Below are positions 3,137-38,287 of a stretch of 42,423 nucleotides of DNA, piece by piece. The notes under the pieces are model-generated. The model had not been told where the DNA came from. It ran no database searches and saw only the letters and a list, made by a program, of their open reading frames with translations. Where the stretch lies: positions 1-42,423 of the IMG/VR virus record IMGVR_UViG_3300020044_006480; one strand, given 5' to 3'. Source of the stretch: a virus (taxonomy: Duplodnaviria > Caudoviricetes). Made by a program: the position numbers and the translations under genes. Every line of letters starts with the position of its first letter. Position 1 is the stretch's first letter.

Positions 3137-3510
3137 TCGGTGCCGTCACAGTCGGATGGCCCGACAAGGTTCTCTTGCCCAACTCAAGATCGCACTGGGC
3201 GCCGAAGGCCAAGGCCGCGAAGAAGGCCCGCATGGACGCCGCATGGGCCACCCGTGTCGCCGGGTTCTTGCCGGTAAAGGCCGATGCCCTCCGCATCACC
3301 TGCGTGTTCTTCCCGCCAGACAAGCGTCACCGCGACGTGGACGGCATGCTGTCGAGCCTGAAACCGGCTCTGGACGGCATCTCCGACGCGATCGGCATCG
3401 ACGACAGCAAATGGCAGATCGCCTTGCGTCGTGAGGCTCCCCAGCCTCCGCACGGCTCTGTCCGAATTGAGATCGAAGCGGCCGACGCCGCGCAACCCAA
3501 CGGAGCATGA
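3133..3510 (+). CDS. rusA: RusA-like Holliday junction resolvase
   Basis: PPDKRHRDVDGML..KPALDGISDAIGIDDS catalytic Asp pattern. Confidence 0.85.
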   Translation: MIGAVTVGWPDKVLLPNSRSHWAPKAKAAKKARMDAAWATRVAGFLPVKADALRITCVFFPPDKRHRDVDGMLSSLKPALDGISDAIGIDDSKWQIALRREAPQPPHGSVRIEIEAADAAQPNGA

Positions 3511-7901: not shown

Positions 7902-8095
7902 TGGCCGAAAACGACCTAAAGACCGTCATTGCTGAGGGCTTCAAGGGGCTGCAATTCCTGCGACAGGCCATCGCCCAGATGGAGGAGTCCAAAATAGCCA
8001 CCTTCGATAGTGTCGGCTCGGACATTCTCGAAGCTGCATTAATCATGGTCGAGAGCGATATCCTCGCCCAGATCCCGATTGATGGCGACGCCTAA
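7901..8095 (+). CDS. Small hypothetical protein between terL and portal
   Basis: TGATG and TAATG coupling; helical 64-aa protein; visibly more AT-rich codons than neighbours. Confidence 0.65.
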   Translation: MAENDLKTVIAEGFKGLQFLRQAIAQMEESKIATFDSVGSDILEAALIMVESDILAQIPIDGDA

Positions 8096-10200
8096 TGGCT
8101 GAGCCCCGCACCGGCACGGCCACGCCCTGGCACGACGAGTTCGAACGCTACCGCAAGGCGATGGACCCGTGGGGCAAGGCTTGCTCGGCGGTCAACAAGC
8201 TGTACCTGCGCGAGAACACGGCCTCGAAGTTCTCCATCCTCTGGGCCAACGTGCAGACGCTGCAGCCGGCGGTCTACGCCCGCGTGCCGTCTGCCGTGGT
8301 GTCTCGTCGCTTCAAGGATGCGGACCCTGTCGCGCGTACCGCTGTTGAGGCGATCGAGCGCGCCATCAATTACACCCTCGATGCCTACGACTTCGACCAG
8401 ACGATGCGGCAGGGCAGGGACGACTACCTGCTCTACGGCCGTGCCACGGCATGGCTGCGCTACGAGCCGACCATGCGCACGATCGACGTGCCGCTTGAGG
8501 ACGTGCAGACTGGCGCCGACCCGTACCAGACGGATGCGCTGGATGATGACGGCGAGCCGCGCGAGGACGATGCGCAGGCCCCCGCCTCCTATGAGGAGAT
8601 CGACTTCGAGCGCGTGTGCGTCGACTACGTGCATCGCGACGACTTCGGCCACACGCCTGCCCGCACATGGGGCGAGGTCTGGGCCGTCTGGCGCAAGGCG
8701 TATCTGACCCGCGACGAGCTGGTGAAGCGTTTCCCGGAGAAGGATGCATCCGGCACGCCTCTGGGCAAGCGCATTCCGCTGGATCACACGCCCGCTGGCA
8801 TCTCGGCAGAGGCAGACAGCAACACTCGCGAGCGCACGTGCAAGGCCACCATCTACGAGGTGTGGTCCAAGCGCGATCGCAAGGTGTTCTTCGTCGCCCA
8901 CGACTTTCCCGACGTGCTGGAAGAGATCGAGCCGTTCCTGACGCTCGCCAACTTCTGGCCGTGTCCGAAGCCCGCATACGGAACGCTGACGAACGACAGC
9001 CTGGCTCCGGTGCCGGACTACAAGTTCTATCAGGACCAGGCGGAAGAGATCGACCGGCTCACGGCCAAGATCGACACGCTGGAGAAGGGTCTGCGTCTCG
9101 CTGGCTTCTACCCGTCCGGCCCGAGCGGCGACGGCACCGATGCCATCCGTGAGGCAGCCTCCCGCGCCAGCATGGAGAGCGAGTTCGAGGTCAAGCTGAT
9201 CCCGGTGTCGGGGTGGTCTGCGTTCGCCGAGAAGGGAGGCGCCAGCCAGATCCAGTGGCTGCCGCTCAACCACGTCATCGAAGCGCTGCGGGCCTGCGTC
9301 GAGCTGCGTGATCAGCTCATCACCGACATCTACCAGATCACCGGCATTTCGGACATCGTCCGCGGCGACACCAACCCGAACGAGACGGCAACCGCTCAGG
9401 GCCTCAAGAGCCAGTGGGGTTCAATCCGCATTCGCGACCGGCAGATGGAGCTTGCGCGTTTCGCCAAGGATATCGTCGTCATCGCAGGCGAGATCATCGC
9501 GGAGAAGTTCCAGGCCGAGACGCTGCAGCAGATGACGGGAATCCCGCTGGCGCCGGCAGAGATGCCGCCTGTGCCTCCGATGCAGCCCGGCATGCCTCCC
9601 GAGGCCCTACAGCAGCTTCAACAGCAGATGCAGGAGTTCGAGCAGGCCGAGCAGCAGAAGGCCGCCGTGATGCAGCTCCTGCGCGATGATGCCCAGCGTG
9701 GTTTCCGCGTGGAGATCGAGACCGACAGCACGATCGAGGCCGATCAGCAGGCCGAGAAACAGGCCGCAGTCGAGCTTGTCGGCATGATGGGGCAGTTCTT
9801 CCAGCAGTCCTTGCCGGTGATCCAGATGTTCCCGCCGGCTGCCGACCTTATCGGGCAGACGATGCTTCTGGCTCTGCGCCGATTCCGGGCCGGTCGTGAG
9901 CTTGAGGGGGCCGTGGAGACGCTTGCCGACCAGTTGAAGGGCATGAGCGCCCCGCAGCCGGCGCCCACCGGTCTTGACCCCGCCATTGCCCAGCAAGAGG
10001 CCGAGATGGCCGGGCAGAAGGCGCAGATCGAGATGCAGGCCACGCAGGCGAAAGCCGCAGCCACGGTGCAGGCGGCCGAGGCCAGCATGGCGAAGACGCA
10101 GATGGACGCGCAGGCCCACGCGATGCGCAACCAGAGCGACATCGAACGCATGCAGGTCGAGGCGGCCACACGCAACATGATGCCAGAGGTGGTGCAGTGA
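8095..10200 (+). CDS. Portal protein (P22-like, long Q-rich C-terminal barrel)
   Basis: 701 aa following terL; ITGISDIVRG...ETATAQ motif; coiled-coil tail. Confidence 0.88.
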   Translation: MAEPRTGTATPWHDEFERYRKAMDPWGKACSAVNKLYLRENTASKFSILWANVQTLQPAVYARVPSAVVSRRFKDADPVARTAVEAIERAINYTLDAYDFDQTMRQGRDDYLLYGRATAWLRYEPTMRTIDVPLEDVQTGADPYQTDALDDDGEPREDDAQAPASYEEIDFERVCVDYVHRDDFGHTPARTWGEVWAVWRKAYLTRDELVKRFPEKDASGTPLGKRIPLDHTPAGISAEADSNTRERTCKATIYEVWSKRDRKVFFVAHDFPDVLEEIEPFLTLANFWPCPKPAYGTLTNDSLAPVPDYKFYQDQAEEIDRLTAKIDTLEKGLRLAGFYPSGPSGDGTDAIREAASRASMESEFEVKLIPVSGWSAFAEKGGASQIQWLPLNHVIEALRACVELRDQLITDIYQITGISDIVRGDTNPNETATAQGLKSQWGSIRIRDRQMELARFAKDIVVIAGEIIAEKFQAETLQQMTGIPLAPAEMPPVPPMQPGMPPEALQQLQQQMQEFEQAEQQKAAVMQLLRDDAQRGFRVEIETDSTIEADQQAEKQAAVELVGMMGQFFQQSLPVIQMFPPAADLIGQTMLLALRRFRAGRELEGAVETLADQLKGMSAPQPAPTGLDPAIAQQEAEMAGQKAQIEMQATQAKAAATVQAAEASMAKTQMDAQAHAMRNQSDIERMQVEAATRNMMPEVVQ

Positions 10201-10418
10201 GCGCCCGTTCTTCCTTCCCCTGCCCAGCCATCCGCCCCAGCGGCATGAAGCCCATCCAGTCCATGGCTGACGGGCGCACCTACGACGACCGCAACGACTA
10301 CAGCGCGTCCCTTGCGGCGCAGAACATGCGGATCTTCGAGACCGGCGAGAAGCCGACCCCACCTGCGGCCACATCGGCCCGCGACATCATCGAACGAGAG
10401 ATGAAAAAGTATGTCTGA
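10197..10418 (+). CDS. Hypothetical head-region protein
   Basis: GTGA coupling with GAGGTGG RBS. Confidence 0.65.
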   Translation: MSARSSFPCPAIRPSGMKPIQSMADGRTYDDRNDYSASLAAQNMRIFETGEKPTPPAATSARDIIEREMKKYV

Positions 10419-11499
10419 CATCGACCAGGCCCATCAATCGGCCGAGGCGACGGAAGCTCCGTTCAACCTGCGTGACGCCCTTGAGGCGGAAGCTGCGCGC
10501 CAGACGGCGGATAGCGGCGAGACTGCCGAGAGTGACGGCGGCGTCCGCGACGATGGTCGCGACGAGAAGGGGCGGTTTGCGCCAAAGGAGAAGTCGGATG
10601 CTGGATCTCCCGAGGATGATCGAGGATCGACGACGCATTCAGAAGATAGCCGACGAAATCTTTCGAGCGAACCCACGGGAGATAGCGCTCCAAAGGTGGT
10701 TGATGGCGAACAAGGAGTGGTTGGAGCAACTCCACCGCCCGGCTGGTCCGTCGCCAGCAAGTCAGCCTGGAACGACCTCCCCGAAGCCGTAAGGGCCGAT
10801 ATCGCCAAGCGCGAGCGCGAGGTCTCGGACGGCTTCAAGCAATATAGCGGCATGGGCGACATCAAGCCGTATGCCGAGCATTTCGCCAGCCAGGGCGGAT
10901 CGCTCAAGCAGGCCCTCGACAGCTACATGGGCTTCGAGCGCGTCTTGGGGCAGAACTTCGCAGGGGGCATCGAGCTTCTCTGCCGTCAGTACAACGTGGA
11001 TCCTCGCTCGCTCGCCCAGCACATGATGGGGCAGGGCGGACAGCCGGTTCAGCAGGACCCGAACGCCGCTCGCATCGCACAGCTTGAGCAGATGTTCGCC
11101 AATCAGCAGCGCATGGCCGCCGAACAGGAGCAGGCCGGCGCACAGCAGACGATCGAGCAATTCGCCTCCGATCCGAAGCACCTCTTTTTCGAGAACGTCA
11201 AAGTCACCATGGGCCACCTCATTCAAACGGGGCAGGCCGCCGGTCTCGAAGACGCATACGACAAGGCAATCTGGATGCACCCGGAAATTCGGCCGCAGCT
11301 TCTCAAGCAGCAGCAGGCCGAGGCGGCAAGCGTATCGCAGAGCCAACAGCGACAGGCCGCGGCAACTCAGGCCCGCCAGTCGGCAAAATCCCTCACCGGC
11401 TCACCGACGCCCGGCGGTTCGTCCGTCGACCGATCGCAGCCTCGCTCTATCCGTGAGATCGCCCTCGAAGCCGCGCGTGCTCAGGGTGTCTCCGTCTAG
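10411..11499 (+). CDS. Capsid scaffolding protein
   Basis: Acidic disordered N-terminus, RDEKGRF, PPPGWS...W..LP, Q-rich helices; directly upstream of the capsid gene. Confidence 0.8.
   Translation: MSDIDQAHQSAEATEAPFNLRDALEAEAARQTADSGETAESDGGVRDDGRDEKGRFAPKEKSDAGSPEDDRGSTTHSEDSRRNLSSEPTGDSAPKVVDGEQGVVGATPPPGWSVASKSAWNDLPEAVRADIAKREREVSDGFKQYSGMGDIKPYAEHFASQGGSLKQALDSYMGFERVLGQNFAGGIELLCRQYNVDPRSLAQHMMGQGGQPVQQDPNAARIAQLEQMFANQQRMAAEQEQAGAQQTIEQFASDPKHLFFENVKVTMGHLIQTGQAAGLEDAYDKAIWMHPEIRPQLLKQQQAEAASVSQSQQRQAAATQARQSAKSLTGSPTPGGSSVDRSQPRSIREIALEAARAQGVSV
10598..10792 (+). CDS. Overprinted 64-aa gene nested in the +1 frame of the scaffold gene
   Basis: AAGGAG at 10585-10590, 7 nt before ATG; amphipathic MLDLPRMIEDRRRIQKIADEIFRANPREIALQRWLMANKEWLEQLH; scaffold-frame codon usage is atypical here. 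Confidence 0.55.
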   Translation: MLDLPRMIEDRRRIQKIADEIFRANPREIALQRWLMANKEWLEQLHRPAGPSPASQPGTTSPKP

Positions 11500-11510
11500 G
11501 ATACACCGCC

Positions 11511-12506
11511 ATGCCTCAGATCAACATTGGAGAGATGCTCTCCACGACGATGTCGGAGTACGGGAAGACCCTGCACGACAACGTCACCGGCAGCACTGCG
11601 CTGCTGGATCGCCTCCGTCGTAAGGGCCGCATCAAGCCCTGGTCCGGTGGCGTCGATATCCGCGAACCGCTCATGTACGCGTTCAACAACACGTTCATGT
11701 TCTACACCGGATACGAGTACCTGAACGTCACGCCGACCGAGACCATCCAGTCGGCCGTCTTCCCGCTCAAGCAGGCCGCGATCAGCGTCTCCATCTCGGG
11801 ACGTGAGCAGCGGCAGAACCGCGGGCCGGCAGAGATCATCGATCTCATCGAAGCGCGCATGGAGAATGCCCGCCTCTCGGCCACCCACTACTTCAACCAG
11901 TCCATCTACTCGGACGGCTCGTCGTTCAACGGCAAGGCGATCCAGGGCCTCTCGGCGCTCGTGTCGAAGAACCCTGACGTCGGCACTGTCGGCGGTATCG
12001 ACGCGGCCGAGAACGTGTGGTGGCGCAACCAGGCCATCGACGCCACGACCGATCCGCTCGGTCCGGTGACGAAGGAAAACATCAAGCAGTACTTCAACAA
12101 GACGTCGGTGATGACCACGCGCGGCAACGAGCGCGCCGACCTCATCATCCTCGATGAGAACTACTGGCTGATGTATCTGGAGAGCCTGCAGGACATCCAG
12201 CGCATCACCTCCACCGGCAACGAGGCGGCGGGCCACGGCTTCCCGTCCGTCAAGTACTACGGCGGCGGCGGCAACACCGATGTCGTCCTCGACGGCGGAC
12301 GCGGTGGCGCTTCGATCCCCGAGAACACGGCGTATTTCCTCAACACGGATTACATCACCCTGCGTGAAGATCCGGGCCGGAAGTGGAACGTGGTCGGCGG
12401 CGACCGGATGAACACGAATCAGGATGCCATCACCAAGCTCATGCTTTGGATGGGCGCCCTGACCATTTCGAACCGCTCGGCTCAGGCCGTGCTCTTCGAA
12501 TCCTAA
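11511..12506 (+). CDS. Major capsid protein
   Basis: 331 aa after the scaffold; DNV...ALL.RL, IYSDG, GLSALV...GTVGGID features of HK97-fold capsids; strong codon bias. Confidence 0.9.
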   Translation: MPQINIGEMLSTTMSEYGKTLHDNVTGSTALLDRLRRKGRIKPWSGGVDIREPLMYAFNNTFMFYTGYEYLNVTPTETIQSAVFPLKQAAISVSISGREQRQNRGPAEIIDLIEARMENARLSATHYFNQSIYSDGSSFNGKAIQGLSALVSKNPDVGTVGGIDAAENVWWRNQAIDATTDPLGPVTKENIKQYFNKTSVMTTRGNERADLIILDENYWLMYLESLQDIQRITSTGNEAAGHGFPSVKYYGGGGNTDVVLDGGRGGASIPENTAYFLNTDYITLREDPGRKWNVVGGDRMNTNQDAITKLMLWMGALTISNRSAQAVLFES

Positions 12507-34166: not shown

Positions 34167-34768
34167 TGGCGTGCCCTCAATGCGTCGGTGATCGCTTTGG
34201 AAATGACGTCGCCTAGGTCGGCTATGTCGCCCTTGTCGGCGACGACGTGATAGTCGCCGTTCTGCGCGTCGCTCACCGAGACGATGCGGAAGCCGTCCTC
34301 GGAAATAGAGCGAACGACACAGCCAAGGTCGTTGTTGTGCCCATTCAGTGTGGGCTCGCCCGTGAAAAGAGGCTGCTTGCCGCGAACGTCGCCGGGATCG
34401 TTCTCGTCGAAGTGCCAGTGCTCGGGCCAGAGCGTATGCGGCGATCGCCAAGCAACCGGCTTTGAAGTCGTGCGAGGTGTAAAGGACAGGTCGATGAAAC
34501 AGCCCGGCCCGGCGATCGTCAGCGAATAGACAGTGCGCCCATGTTCGCGGAATTTCGGGTCGCTGACGCGGCGAATTGCAAACTCAGCCTCTATGGCTTC
34601 GACAACCTCCTGCGGGGAGGAATCTTCGTCGGTCCACGGAATGCAGATCAGGTCGGCATCTCGCGCCATGCTGCCATGCACGGCCATCGCGTAGCCGTGG
34701 GCGCGAGCAATCTCGGCAAGCTCCGGATAAAGACCAGCATAGACAGGGGCGTAGTTGGCGGGCTTCAT
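34163..34768 (-). CDS. Protein with N-terminal nucleotidyltransferase-like domain and PVAW module
   Basis: HGSMARDADLI fits the GS..DxD motif, with a later IDLS; KPVAWR linker. Confidence 0.6.
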   Translation of the reverse strand: MKPANYAPVYAGLYPELAEIARAHGYAMAVHGSMARDADLICIPWTDEDSSPQEVVEAIEAEFAIRRVSDPKFREHGRTVYSLTIAGPGCFIDLSFTPRTTSKPVAWRSPHTLWPEHWHFDENDPGDVRGKQPLFTGEPTLNGHNNDLGCVVRSISEDGFRIVSVSDAQNGDYHVVADKGDIADLGDVISKAITDALRARQ

Positions 34769-35991
34769 CGTCCGGCCTCCCGCCCATTGAGGGCTGGCTG
34801 GATACGAGCGAGGAGGGCTCGGGCGGCGTGAACTGTCGACGCAAGCGCGGAAACTACAGGGCCTTCAATATCGTCACGCCGAGCGGGAGCATCCTTGTCC
34901 AGCGCGTTATGAATGGAAATTCCGGTGAGAACCGATTCTGCAGCCTCCACGAGCGCCGCGACCTGACCCTCTAGCTCGGTGGCGCGGGCTTCGGCGGCAA
35001 GGACGCGCACCTTACGTGCAGCATCAAAGCCCTTCGCGTACCATTCTGTTTCTGCCGCAAGTGCGCGTGCTTCGGCGGCGGTGACGCGGGTCCACAAATC
35101 ATCCCGCTCAAGTGCGGTCGGCTTGTAGAGGTCGTGGTAGAGCTTCTGGTGGTCCGCCTTCCATTCGTCCCGTTCGGTCACGAGCGCCGCGACCTGACTC
35201 TGTAGATCGGTGACGCGGGCTTCGGCGGCGCCTAGTTCCGTCGCCCACCGCATTCCAATTTCCGCGTTGTGATCCGCGCGCCACTTCTCTTTGCCCTTCT
35301 CTCGCTCAAGCTGCGCGACTTGACCTTCGGCGACGGTGGCGCGGGTTACGTAGTCGCCAACGAGTTCGCCGATGCTCTTGCCGCCGAGGGTTCCATATGA
35401 GGGAGAGCCGAGCGCCTTCCAGACCTGAGTAATGGTCTCCGAAAACGCCCGCTGCCTGTCCAGCACGATGTCGACTTCTTTACGGTAATCGTTCCACTCC
35501 GCTTTCAGCCGCGCGATCTCGTCCTTCTCTGCATCGGGAGCGGGGGCGGGGTGGGCGTAGAGCGGGCGTACTTCGATGCCGTCGCGCCAACCCATATCGG
35601 GGTCGTCGATCTCCTCGCGGCGCTTGTTCGCCTCGAACAGCTTACCGTCAACGAACAGGCCCCAAGCAACCGGTTCGACCCCGACGCCCATCTCCGCAGG
35701 AGCGGAAGGGGCTGGAAGGGCGGAGAGGGCTTCGAAGCGGCCGTCCTCGAACTCGTCGCGAGGACGGACCCATATCGGTCCATCGGCACAATCGCGGTAG
35801 ATGACGATCTCTCGCATGTCGACGCTGACCGGGGAAACGGACAGACCGCGACGGCGCGTCTCCCAATCCGCTGACTGCATCCGACCGACGCCAACGACCT
35901 CGTAGGCGTGTCCGGTCTTCTGATGCCGCCAGCGGGTGCCTGGCTCCAGCGCTGCCTTCGCCTTCTCAATCTCAGTCGTGGTGGCGGTCAT
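34765..35991 (-). CDS. Modular Ead/Ea22-like protein: DUF1653-like N-domain, EPVAW module, repeated coiled coil
   Basis: RWRHQKTG..YEV...IVIYR...WVRP..EF.DGRF; EPVAW...RPLYAHPAPA; AEAR...QVAALV repeats. Confidence 0.78.
   Translation of the reverse strand: MTATTTEIEKAKAALEPGTRWRHQKTGHAYEVVGVGRMQSADWETRRRGLSVSPVSVDMREIVIYRDCADGPIWVRPRDEFEDGRFEALSALPAPSAPAEMGVGVEPVAWGLFVDGKLFEANKRREEIDDPDMGWRDGIEVRPLYAHPAPAPDAEKDEIARLKAEWNDYRKEVDIVLDRQRAFSETITQVWKALGSPSYGTLGGKSIGELVGDYVTRATVAEGQVAQLEREKGKEKWRADHNAEIGMRWATELGAAEARVTDLQSQVAALVTERDEWKADHQKLYHDLYKPTALERDDLWTRVTAAEARALAAETEWYAKGFDAARKVRVLAAEARATELEGQVAALVEAAESVLTGISIHNALDKDAPARRDDIEGPVVSALASTVHAARALLARIQPALNGREAGR
34948..35229. repeat. 51-bp direct repeat (34948-34998 and 35179-35229; 47/51 identical)
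   Basis: Aligned by hand; encodes AAEAR(A/V)T(E/D)L(EG/QS)QVAALV. Confidence 0.9.
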
Positions 35992-36544: not shown

Positions 36545-36942
36545 CAGGCTGCCCTCTCTTGCTCGTCTTGGAAGGCGACACCGTTCGCGGAGCCGTAGGC
36601 GAAGATCAGTTCAATCAGATCCGTCATCTCCGCCTTCGACAGGTCCGACGAGGATCGGCCGAGAGACACGAGCCCGTTCCCATCAAGGTTCGGGACCATG
36701 CGGACTTCGCGCTTGAGGGCGTCGAGGAACAGAAGCTTCCAGTCGTCGGGCGAGAGCTTGAGGCCGTGGTGACGCGCTTGGACGGAAACCTCCGTCAGCA
36801 TGGCCCACATGCGCGAGTTTTGCTCGGTTGACCGCTTGGCTTCTTTGAACTCGACGCGCGTGCCTGACGGGGCGTTTCTGACCCAAGCCGCCGCACGCTC
36901 GCGTTCGTGGCGGCTGTTGAGGATGACGAGGGCGCGGCTCAT
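36544..36942 (-). CDS. ninB: NinB/Orf-family recombination mediator
   Basis: KRSTEQNSRMWAML.EVS.Q...DWK..F...SSSDLSKAEM.DLIE.I.AYG. Confidence 0.88.
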   Translation of the reverse strand: MSRALVILNSRHERERAAAWVRNAPSGTRVEFKEAKRSTEQNSRMWAMLTEVSVQARHHGLKLSPDDWKLLFLDALKREVRMVPNLDGNGLVSLGRSSSDLSKAEMTDLIELIFAYGSANGVAFQDEQERAA

Positions 36943-37577
36943 GCGGCCATCCGCAGGTACTTCTCGGAAAGAGCGCTGACCTTCTCGTCCAACTCGGCGA
37001 GGAAGAGGGCGACGTCCTTCTCTAGGCCAGCGATCGTTTCCTCGTCCCGCTCGACGCGACAAACGAACAGCTGCATCTCTGCCGGCATCCGCGGATCGAA
37101 CGACGCGAAGTCGCACCAGGCGCGTCCGGTGCAAGCCATCTGCCACTGCATCTGCGTGACGTACTTTCCCGCGACTGACTGGCCGAGAAGCGTTTCGATA
37201 TGAGTGGCGGTGTTCGGGCACTTGATCTCGATGAGACCGTCGTCGCCAATCAGGCCATCCGGGCTGGCGCCTGTGTTCGGGATCGAAGGGTGCGGCACGA
37301 AGCCGACCTGCATGACGTCGCAGTCGTGCAGGAACTCGTAGGCGGCGCGCGCCTGCGGCTCTGTTTCGGTGCCCCACCGCATGGCAGCGTTCGTGTAGCC
37401 CTCACCCGAGACGCCGGTCAGGCGCTCTGCGACAAGCTCGGCCATATAATTCGCACGCGATGCGCCCCAGCCTTTCGCGGTCTTGGCGACCACGTCAGCC
37501 ACACGGGAGGCCGTGACCTTCCCGCAGCGGGCGGCATGCCATTCGGCTGTGCCTTGGTCGATCATCAGGGTGTCCAT
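36939..37577 (-). CDS. Lambda exonuclease / YqaJ family
   Basis: QGT.EWHAARCGKVTAS, GTETEP.AR, GASPDG, EIKCP, QMQ. Confidence 0.93.
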   Translation of the reverse strand: MDTLMIDQGTAEWHAARCGKVTASRVADVVAKTAKGWGASRANYMAELVAERLTGVSGEGYTNAAMRWGTETEPQARAAYEFLHDCDVMQVGFVPHPSIPNTGASPDGLIGDDGLIEIKCPNTATHIETLLGQSVAGKYVTQMQWQMACTGRAWCDFASFDPRMPAEMQLFVCRVERDEETIAGLEKDVALFLAELDEKVSALSEKYLRMAA

Positions 37578-37579
37578 GA

Positions 37580-38287
37580 TTAGGCACCCCGCTTGCGGTT
37601 GATGAGCTTCACGACCGCGTCAAACTGGTCGGCGGCGATATCGTCGAGGGTCGCAACCTTGATGAAGGCGAGGAGCTTGCGTTCATCCGCGCCGACGCTC
37701 TCGATGAGGTCGCGTAGGTCCATCACCTGCTGTTCGGTGATGCAGCGGCGACCAGCCATTCCCGTGCCGGCGGCCTGGCCGTCGTCATCCTCCGACGCCG
37801 CGAGGCCGAGCATCTGCGTGAGCGAGTACCGCTGCAGGTATGTCAGCGTGGATCCGATCGCCTGGATGGCGTTCTTGCTGCCCGACGTGTCGGACGGACC
37901 GGCGAGGGTGGTTTCCTCGTGGTGTCCCGCCTCGTGAGAGAGAATGCAGGTGACGTGGATCTTCTCGTCCTGCCGAGTGCGGAACCGGTACGAGAGACCG
38001 TGCTTCGAGATGATCGGGTCGACGATCCGGGCGATGGCCGCGAAGTCAGCATAGCGCTTGTCGTTGTGCCCCTTGGCGCTCTTGGCGATAACGGGGATCT
38101 CGGCCTTGGCTGCGGAGAGTGCCGCGTCGAATGCCTTGCGCGCCTGGGTGGCTTCCCAGCGATCCTGCAGGGACATCAGCTGGCTCATCTGCTCGACGCT
38201 GGCGCCGTTGCTAAGCGCCTGCGAAAGCATGTCCATCGGCGTCATCGACGCGCGCGGGGTCTCGTCAATCCTCTGAACGGCGCTCAC
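37580..38287 (-). CDS. erf: ERF-family single-strand annealing protein
   Basis: YADF..I...GL...QAIGSTLTYLQRYSL...GLA.EDDDG. Confidence 0.93.
   Translation of the reverse strand: MSAVQRIDETPRASMTPMDMLSQALSNGASVEQMSQLMSLQDRWEATQARKAFDAALSAAKAEIPVIAKSAKGHNDKRYADFAAIARIVDPIISKHGLSYRFRTRQDEKIHVTCILSHEAGHHEETTLAGPSDTSGSKNAIQAIGSTLTYLQRYSLTQMLGLAASEDDDGQAAGTGMAGRRCITEQQVMDLRDLIESVGADERKLLAFIKVATLDDIAADQFDAVVKLINRKRGA

What the first reader, a model, noticed from the sequence alone, without database searches (positions are those of the whole stretch)
10585..10792. Overprinted gene inside the scaffold protein linker
Seen: a strong AAGGAG RBS, ATG 10598 and a 64-aa +1-frame ORF whose first ~46 residues look like a real amphipathic helical protein. 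Over the same stretch the scaffold frame drops its usual GC-ending codons (GAT GAT CGA GGA ... CAT TCA GAA GAT ... AAT CTT) and encodes a disordered linker. Inference: a gene inserted or evolved within the tolerant linker and co-expressed with capsid assembly genes; candidates are an assembly regulator, an anti-satellite factor or an inhibitor of capsid-sensing defence. Standard annotation would miss it.
Basis: partly seen in the sequence, partly recalled or inferred. Interest (0 to 1): 0.72.

Follow-up and report, generated by a model that had tools for sequence, protein, structure and literature searches.

The report
Swappable gene hidden inside phage scaffold
Inside the floppy linker of a soil phage's head-assembly gene lies a second, shifted-frame gene whose start and stop signals are kept in relatives while its middle is replaced by unrelated sequences, so the linker likely serves as a hidden swap slot for small proteins that may counter host defences.

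Summary
Observation confirmed. AAGGAG (10585-90), ATG 10598 and a 64-codon +1 ORF lie in the linker of the scaffold-like gene. Scaffold third-position GC falls to 15 of 46 (36.9 expected), starting exactly at the ATG codon. The peptide has no homologue in any search, but the slot is conserved. A phage with a ~50% identical scaffold has the same RBS, spacing and ATG and the same stop, made by rare codons GTA AGG, around an unrelated peptide. Soil contigs ~94% identical to the window match up to the ATG and then carry other letters. Three scaffolds 99% identical in the core have linkers only 11-21% identical. A separate clade carries its own overprinted helical family in the same linker. So this is a variable gene slot nested out of frame in a head gene. 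Translation and function are untested. Counter-defence is my best guess (about 0.4); an assembly regulator fits the variability poorly. One allele pair shows no purifying selection on the peptide. The scan has noted nested genes in scaffold linkers, and swapped nested genes in a nuclease, in other genomes (unchecked notes).

The parts
10411..11499 (+). Outer gene: 362-aa scaffold-like head protein between portal and major capsid gene
   Evidence: phrog_25516, head and packaging, E 4.7e-7; homologue P0070 named 'Scaffolding protein' by UniRef
10546..10578 (+). Conserved left box RDDGRDEKGRF of the scaffold; likely left recombination arm
   Evidence: alignments; relatives' contigs match here; recombination role inferred
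10585..10590 (+). Shine-Dalgarno AAGGAG (scaffold codons Lys-Glu)
   Evidence: same motif and spacing in L006
10598..10792 (+). Inner +1-frame ORF, 64 aa, predicted three-helix peptide
10601..10731 (+). Variable body of the inner gene = scaffold linker residues about 64-107; replaced in relatives
   Evidence: no cover at 10611-10715 in 4 of 4 runs and joints across it; linker identity 5-29% in 35 of 36 clade pairs
10732..10789 (+). Conserved right box PPPGWSVASK and following helix; the inner ORF's last 18-19 residues are a passive read-through of it
   Evidence: by eye, changes at 10779 and 10785 in relatives are silent in the scaffold and change the inner frame
10789..10794 (+). Rare codon pair GTA AGG (Val-Arg) that makes the inner TAA stop
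   Evidence: GTA is 3.7% of Val and AGG 1.6% of Arg codons; pair present in window and L006, in 0 of 13 other loci with this motif
8095..10200 (+). Portal gene (context)
   Evidence: phrog_12082
11511..12506 (+). Major capsid gene (context)
   Evidence: phrog_9953
36939..38287 (-). RecE-like exonuclease and Erf-like annealing protein; candidate machinery for swapping (role inferred)

Best explanation
The scaffold linker holds an out-of-frame gene slot whose start and stop signals are conserved and whose body differs among relatives; it is likely translated from the late head mRNA into a small helical protein that likely blunts a host defence acting late in infection. Shown: RBS, ATG, GC3 drop, conserved start and stop, replaced bodies in near-identical backbones, and a second overprinted family in the same linker of another clade. 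Inferred: ribosomes start at the internal SD; alleles move by recombination between the RDDGRDEKGRF and PPPGWSVASK boxes, probably through the phage's Erf/RecE-like pair, and diverge fast by point changes and in-frame indels; the scaffold only needs a stop-free hydrophilic linker, so any such peptide fits. Guessed from analogy: the target is a variable host defence. Odds: real translated gene slot about 0.88; counter-defence role about 0.4 overall.
For: Start and stop conserved around an unrelated body: L006 (scaffold about 50%, capsid and portal 59% identical) has AAGGAG-7nt-ATG, a 65-aa +1 ORF, linker GC3 0.45 vs 0.76 and the same GTA AGG stop; the two peptides are unrelated (p 0.42). Protein footprint K[ED]xxD[GADEV] in exact register in 6 of 7 other clade members, 0 of 88 outside; these nine form a clade on the core tree (support 0.76). 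Replacement in close kin: a 766-nt contig in run X6 holds both flanks (13 and 4 other letters, 3 gaps) with 167 letters in place of 161, in frame, beginning right after the ATG; joints also in X1 and X2. P0004/P0005/P0007: core 99%, linker 11-21%. Second clade L181-L183: own +1 ORF of 62-64 aa, ATG and TAG kept in 3 of 3, GC3 0.33-0.37 vs 0.82, in-frame indels, helix propensity beyond a composition-matched null (p 0.03, 0.002, 0.0005), and JGI's gene caller called two of them. Analogy: unrelated anti-CRISPR genes mixed at one position beside the protease/scaffold gene of Mu-like phages (PMC3993853, passages).
Against: No expression data and no homologue or fold match that points to a function. 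Between L182 and L183, 6 of 9 substitutions are silent in the scaffold and 8 of 9 change the peptide, so that pair shows no purifying selection on the peptide (though 13 of 14 hydrophobic residues are kept). The L006 peptide has no significant hydrophobic moment (p 0.6-0.8). Only one independent full DNA allele of the window's clade was obtained; for P0002-P0007 and P0009 the inner ORF is inferred from protein footprints. Clade members are not independent samples. The second clade has only a weak SD. Young overprinted genes can be fast-evolving and functionless (PMC3494269, abstract).
Confidence: 0.42

Rival explanations
1. Same translated slot, but the peptides act in phage-phage or phage-satellite conflict (exclusion, blocking capsid hijack) rather than against host defence.
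For: Near-unique alleles per phage (35 of 36 clade pairs under 30% linker identity) suit a self/non-self specificity factor; the phage is temperate (integrase, repressor); position in the head module.
Against: No sigma-70-type promoter in 10100-11600, so lysogenic expression, needed for classical exclusion, is not indicated; no satellite is known for this phage.
Confidence: 0.16
2. Translation of the inner ORF matters but its product does not: internal initiation tunes scaffold-to-capsid output or protects the mRNA, and the body drifts.
For: Only start and stop are conserved; the L182/L183 substitutions favour the scaffold frame.
Against: A drifting body should return to GC-ending codons; all five alleles with DNA keep linker GC3 at 0.33-0.45, and the L181-L183 peptides are more helix-prone than a composition-matched null.
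Confidence: 0.14
3. A nursery of young de novo or captured ORFs that are translated but mostly without function; the slot persists because it is harmless.
For: No homologues outside the slot; fast change; precedent in PMC3494269 (abstract).
Against: Start and rare-codon stop are kept across about 50% scaffold divergence while five of the six codons before the stop pair differ, which needs selection.
Confidence: 0.12
4. The peptide regulates head assembly by binding scaffold, capsid or portal.
For: Position in the head module; weak likeness of the window peptide to its own scaffold tail (p 0.048, uncorrected).
Against: Scaffold cores that are 99% identical carry unrelated linkers; the sister clade P0010-P0016 and most relatives lack the footprint; the tail likeness is absent in L181-L183 (p 0.68-0.88).
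Confidence: 0.08
5. No inner gene: the linker is a fast-changing, AT-shifted stretch and the SD is a by-product of Lys-Glu codons.
For: AAG GAG is common coding; 33 of 88 outside scaffolds have K[ED] in register; open +1 frames are common.
Against: None of those 33 has Asp plus a G-starting codon at the ATG position; the GC3 drop starts at the ATG codon; replacement begins right after the ATG; a rare-codon stop is conserved 60 nt outside the variable part.
Confidence: 0.08

Closest known systems
Lambda Rz1 embedded in Rz (PMC8785237, passage)
   Same: A whole gene embedded in another gene of a tailed phage; such genes are called rare in Caudoviricetes there.
   Different: Rz1 is a conserved spanin that works with its outer gene (recalled). 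Here the inner sequence is not conserved, has no cysteine or signal peptide, and lies in the head module.
phiX174 lysis gene E in the +1 frame of scaffolding gene D (recalled; microvirus papers seen only as listings)
   Same: +1-frame gene with its own RBS inside a scaffolding gene.
   Different: E is a fixed membrane lysis protein of an ssDNA phage. This peptide is charged (17 of 46 residues K, R, D or E) and variable, and the phage has a separate endolysin.
Anti-CRISPR region of Mu-like Pseudomonas phages (PMC3993853, passages)
   Same: Unrelated small genes mixed and matched at one position between conserved head genes, beside the protease/scaffold gene.
   Different: Those genes are a stand-alone operon between genes with a conserved 3' gene. 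Here the slot is inside the scaffold reading frame, holds one ORF, and no activity is shown.
Overlapping alternate-frame insertion, OAFI (bioRxiv 10.1101/2024.11.07.622342, abstract and section 5)
   Same: [quoted passage not shown]
   Different: Engineered, with designed recoding. Here natural, with RBS, start and stop supplied by the outer gene's conserved flanks and many alleles.

Membership tests
Out-of-frame embedded (overprinted) gene | ORF wholly inside another gene in a different frame, with its own RBS and start | tested here: met
Out-of-frame embedded (overprinted) gene | Codon signature of dual coding confined to the overlap | tested here: met
   z -8.2; same in L006 and L181-L183
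Out-of-frame embedded (overprinted) gene | Start and stop conserved in relatives | tested here: met
   L006 DNA; footprint 6 of 7 vs 0 of 88; stop pair 2 of 15 loci
Out-of-frame embedded (overprinted) gene | Purifying selection on the inner protein sequence | tested here: inconclusive
   no second copy of the window allele found; L182/L183 8 of 9 changes non-silent in the inner frame, hydrophobic sites 13 of 14 kept
Out-of-frame embedded (overprinted) gene | Translation shown | not testable with these tools
   needs Ribo-seq, reporter or proteomics
Rz1 / o-spanin | Lipoprotein with lipobox cysteine, nested in Rz beside lysis genes (definition recalled) | tested here: not met
   no Cys in the peptide; host gene is in the head module
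phiX174 E-type lysis peptide | N-terminal transmembrane helix (definition recalled) | tested here: not met
   17 of the first 46 residues charged, no long uncharged run by eye; no membrane predictor was run
Anti-defence hotspot (acr-region type) | Unrelated small genes at one fixed position in the head module | tested here: met
Anti-defence hotspot (acr-region type) | Stand-alone operon between genes with a conserved 3' gene | tested here: not met
   nested single ORF; no sigma-70-type promoter found
Anti-defence hotspot (acr-region type) | Inhibition of a defence system | not testable with these tools
   no family hit at E 0.001 in Pfam, PHROGs, NCBIfam or PADLOC; no dedicated anti-defence library was searched
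Capsid scaffolding protein (outer gene) | Encoded between portal and major capsid gene, related to head proteins | tested here: met
Capsid scaffolding protein (outer gene) | Drives prohead assembly and leaves the mature head | not testable with these tools
   distant Brucella phage homologues are annotated 'structural protein', so an internal virion role is not excluded

The most novel reading that the evidence does not exclude
Phages keep an invisible, recombination-fed library of unrelated counter-defence peptides written out of frame inside an essential head gene. The scaffold's conserved flanks supply RBS, start, stop and crossover arms, so every allele is made at capsid-gene level and cannot be deleted out of frame. 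The arrangement arose at least twice in this scaffold family.
Probability: 0.3. Interest if true: 0.85.

Novelty: new variant of a known kind. Interest (0 to 1): 0.66.

Why it matters
Embedded genes in tailed phages are held to be rare and are usually fixed partners of their outer gene. Here the embedded position behaves like an accessory-gene hotspot. Conservation-based tests of overlapping ORFs would reject such a gene because its sequence is not conserved, and annotation misses it: the window peptide is not in the 15-billion-protein collection. It gives a simple screen (D/G/R/S-rich linker, fixed Asp after Lys-Glu, GC3 dip) for hidden small phage proteins, a ready allele panel for anti-defence screens, and a natural setting to watch overprinted genes arise and turn over.

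Tried and rejected
Homologues of the window peptide: none by word search, tblastn-confirmed DNA search of viral contigs (0 of 14 candidates) or ESM Atlas. phmmer over 1.84 billion proteins gave 2 hits, both repeat proteins that I judged spurious. phrog_5252 (E 0.047) and DUF2637 (E 0.27) are too weak. Fold searches: nothing at E 0.001 in BFVD or PDB. Peptide plus scaffold core complex: no answer, no evidence either way. RNA runs: no RNA holder listed. Antisense gene: the minus frame that shares the middle base is open for 90 codons in the window but has stops in L006 and L096. RNA structure at the start: not conserved (z -1.9, +1.1, +1.3). Homology of the window peptide to the L181-L183 family: none (hhalign 0.4%; p 0.38-0.69). 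Scaffold-tail mimicry: one p of 0.048 in four valid tests; the L006 test used a wrong offset and is void. I first read an X6 contig as the L006 allele in a window-like backbone; it differs from the window's flank at 14 of 92 letters, the same count as L006, so it is more likely an L006-like phage. Laying reads on L006 gave only a 62-letter piece with 5 differences, not listed by place. The A3 profile found no member beyond its own loci. Literature: nine searches listed no paper on a variable out-of-frame gene in a tailed-phage scaffold; the library lacks most subscription papers, and no supplements were read.

Full report
Context. The window is a complete 42,423-base virus record with terminal repeats. 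It carries terminase, portal, major capsid and tail genes, and integrase, repressor, endolysin, an Erf-like annealing protein and a RecE-like exonuclease: a temperate tailed phage. Named relatives of the outer protein are mostly Bradyrhizobium prophage proteins at 33-38% identity and Bradyrhizobium phage ppBjS10J-1, so the host is probably an alphaproteobacterium (inference). The outer ORF 10411-11499 lies between portal and capsid and matches a head-and-packaging family. One homologue is named scaffolding protein. Scaffold function itself is inferred.

Observation. Scaffold GC3 over the first 46 overlapped codons is 15 of 46 against 36.9 expected (z -8.2), the rest of the gene is normal, and the lowest 46-codon window in 11 genes starts at the codon that holds the ATG. 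No other of 25 genes falls below 0.475 in 40 codons. Openness is weak evidence: 55% of synonymous recodings stay open and 37 of 96 anchored scaffold genes have some +1 ATG ORF near this point. Of those 37, only the window and L006 have an SD of -8 kcal/mol or better; they, L096 and L076 have z of -4 or lower. The peptide's hydrophobic moment exceeds two nulls (p 0.006, 0.012), and AlphaFold2 without an alignment gives three helices over residues 4-45.

The peptide has no relatives. Word search, phmmer over 1.84 billion proteins, DNA search of viral contigs, ESM Atlas, four profile libraries and two fold searches gave nothing usable. The exact sequence is not in the protein collection.

The slot is conserved. 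L006 (IMGVR_UViG_3300017693_000006; scaffold about 50%, capsid and portal 59% identical) has AAGGAG, seven letters and ATG in the same register, a 65-codon +1 ORF and linker GC3 0.45 against 0.76. Its peptide is unrelated to the window's (p 0.42). Both ORFs stop at the same place, made by GTA AGG for Val-Arg, although five of the six preceding codons differ. GTA is 3.7% of Val and AGG 1.6% of Arg codons in the window. Of 15 distinct loci with this motif only these two use the pair; one other makes a stop with common codons. At protein level, 97 of the 120 listed homologues had both anchors. The pattern K[ED]xxD[GADEV], which an SD-7nt-ATG would leave, is in exact register in 6 of the 7 clade members other than the two discovery sequences (the seventh is one residue off) and in 0 of 88 others, including 0 of 33 that have K[ED] in register. 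Eight of these nine proteins also have linkers 46-57% D/G/R/S/N (P0006 31%), where most others are P/A/E/K-rich. They form a clade on the core tree with support 0.76, so they are not independent samples.

The body is swapped. P0004, P0005 and P0007 are 99% identical in the core and 89-94% in the N-terminus but 11-21% in the linker; 35 of 36 clade pairs are at 5-29%, and only P0003/P0004 share 46%. Contigs of four runs laid on 10380-11000 cover nothing at 10611-10715, while three runs reach 10593-10600 from the left and all four resume at 10732-10762. One 766-letter contig in X6 holds both flanks with 167 letters in place of 161, an in-frame change that begins right after the ATG; X1 shows the same joint and X2 a joint 10600 to 10732. 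The tool warns that joints with short sides may come from other organisms; the X6 joint has a side of 77, the others 30-37. By eye, the four 22-30-letter loose ends that abut the right box have no +1 stop. No listed difference falls at 10789-10794, but 13 rows were not shown. The acidic N-terminus is also replaced in some contigs, so mosaicism is not unique to the linker, but that part is alignable in most records and the linker in none.

A second clade. L096/L181, L182 and L183 (35-39% to the window scaffold, elsewhere on the tree) have a +1 ORF of 62-64 codons in the same linker that starts ten codons earlier and stops about twelve earlier. ATG and TAG are kept in 3 of 3, GC3 is 0.33-0.37 against 0.82, and indels are in frame. 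The peptides are related to each other (39-84%), not to the window's, and are more helix-prone than a composition-matched null. JGI's gene caller called two of them. Their SD is weak. L181 and L183 come from the same pair of samples' series and are only three sequences. Against strong purifying selection: of nine substitutions between L183 and L182 in the ungapped part, six are silent in the scaffold and eight change the peptide, although 13 of 14 hydrophobic residues are kept.

Mechanism. Shown: signals, codon signature, conserved start and stop, replaced bodies, two clades. Inferred: ribosomes on the late head mRNA start at the internal SD. The stop is kept because without it the frame would run on through the scaffold core. 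Alleles move by recombination between the two conserved boxes, plausibly through the Erf/RecE-like pair, and diverge quickly. Guessed: what the peptides do. Constant partners should constrain a binding peptide, so unrelated alleles on a 99% constant scaffold argue against an assembly role. Near-unique alleles are what conflict with a variable opponent produces. The nearest documented pattern is the anti-CRISPR region beside the protease/scaffold gene of Mu-like phages (PMC3993853, passages). No promoter-like site was found, so expression is probably late, which fits defences that act on late infection better than CRISPR or lysogenic exclusion. I put counter-defence at about 0.4, phage or satellite conflict 0.16, sequence-independent translation 0.14, functionless young ORFs 0.12, assembly regulator 0.08, no gene 0.08.

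Comparison and novelty. It works like an embedded gene (lambda Rz1, PMC8785237 passage; phiX174 E, recalled) and like an accessory hotspot, and resembles the engineered OAFI design (bioRxiv 2024.11.07.622342, abstract and section 5). It is not a spanin, not an E-type membrane peptide and not an acr operon. PMC3494269 was seen as abstract and PMC8227390 as passages; the latter warns that ordinary dN/dS misleads in overlaps. Nine literature searches listed no report of this arrangement, within the library's limits. The scan's own unchecked notes report nested genes in scaffold linkers of two other genomes and swapped nested genes in a phage nuclease, so the theme recurs; nothing was noted on this genome or look-alikes. 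Verdict: a real feature, a new variant of a known kind, interest 0.66.

Noticed in passing
L182:3025-3213 (IMGVR_UViG_3300036791_000318): An extra 62-aa ORF sits at the scaffold start. It begins with a duplicate of the scaffold's first nine or so codons, and the scaffold restarts at 3210 overlapping its stop; absent in L181 and L183. Looks like gene capture using the scaffold's start signals. No family hit.
   Followed up: partly
L013:1893-2030: Undecided further overprint in a scaffold linker: 46-aa basic +1 ORF, GC3 0.42 vs 0.67 (z -2.7), stop made by CTA AGG; no NCBIfam or PADLOC hit.
   Followed up: partly
L076 (+1 ORF near the anchor); L078, L080, L054, L055, L059, L066 scaffold N-terminal regions: +1 ORFs with GC3 dips (z -2.8 to -6.7); basic in L078/L080, leucine-rich in L054-L066. 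May be shadows of low-complexity linkers.
   Followed up: no
window 10529-10546: The acidic N-terminal part of the scaffold also varies by indels and is wholly replaced in some soil contigs up to 10546.
   Followed up: no
window 34765-34950 (minus-strand gene 34765-35991): Second-lowest GC3 dip (0.475 over 40 codons) near the gene's 3' end; no convincing alternate ORF, so probably a mosaic tail.
   Followed up: partly
window 10197-10418: Small conserved gene between portal and scaffold (55% to L090, 34% to L181/L183), overlapping both neighbours; function unknown.
   Followed up: no
P0012: Belongs to the sister clade on the core tree but has a longer D/G-rich linker with the start footprint one residue off; may have gained the slot by recombination.
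   Followed up: no
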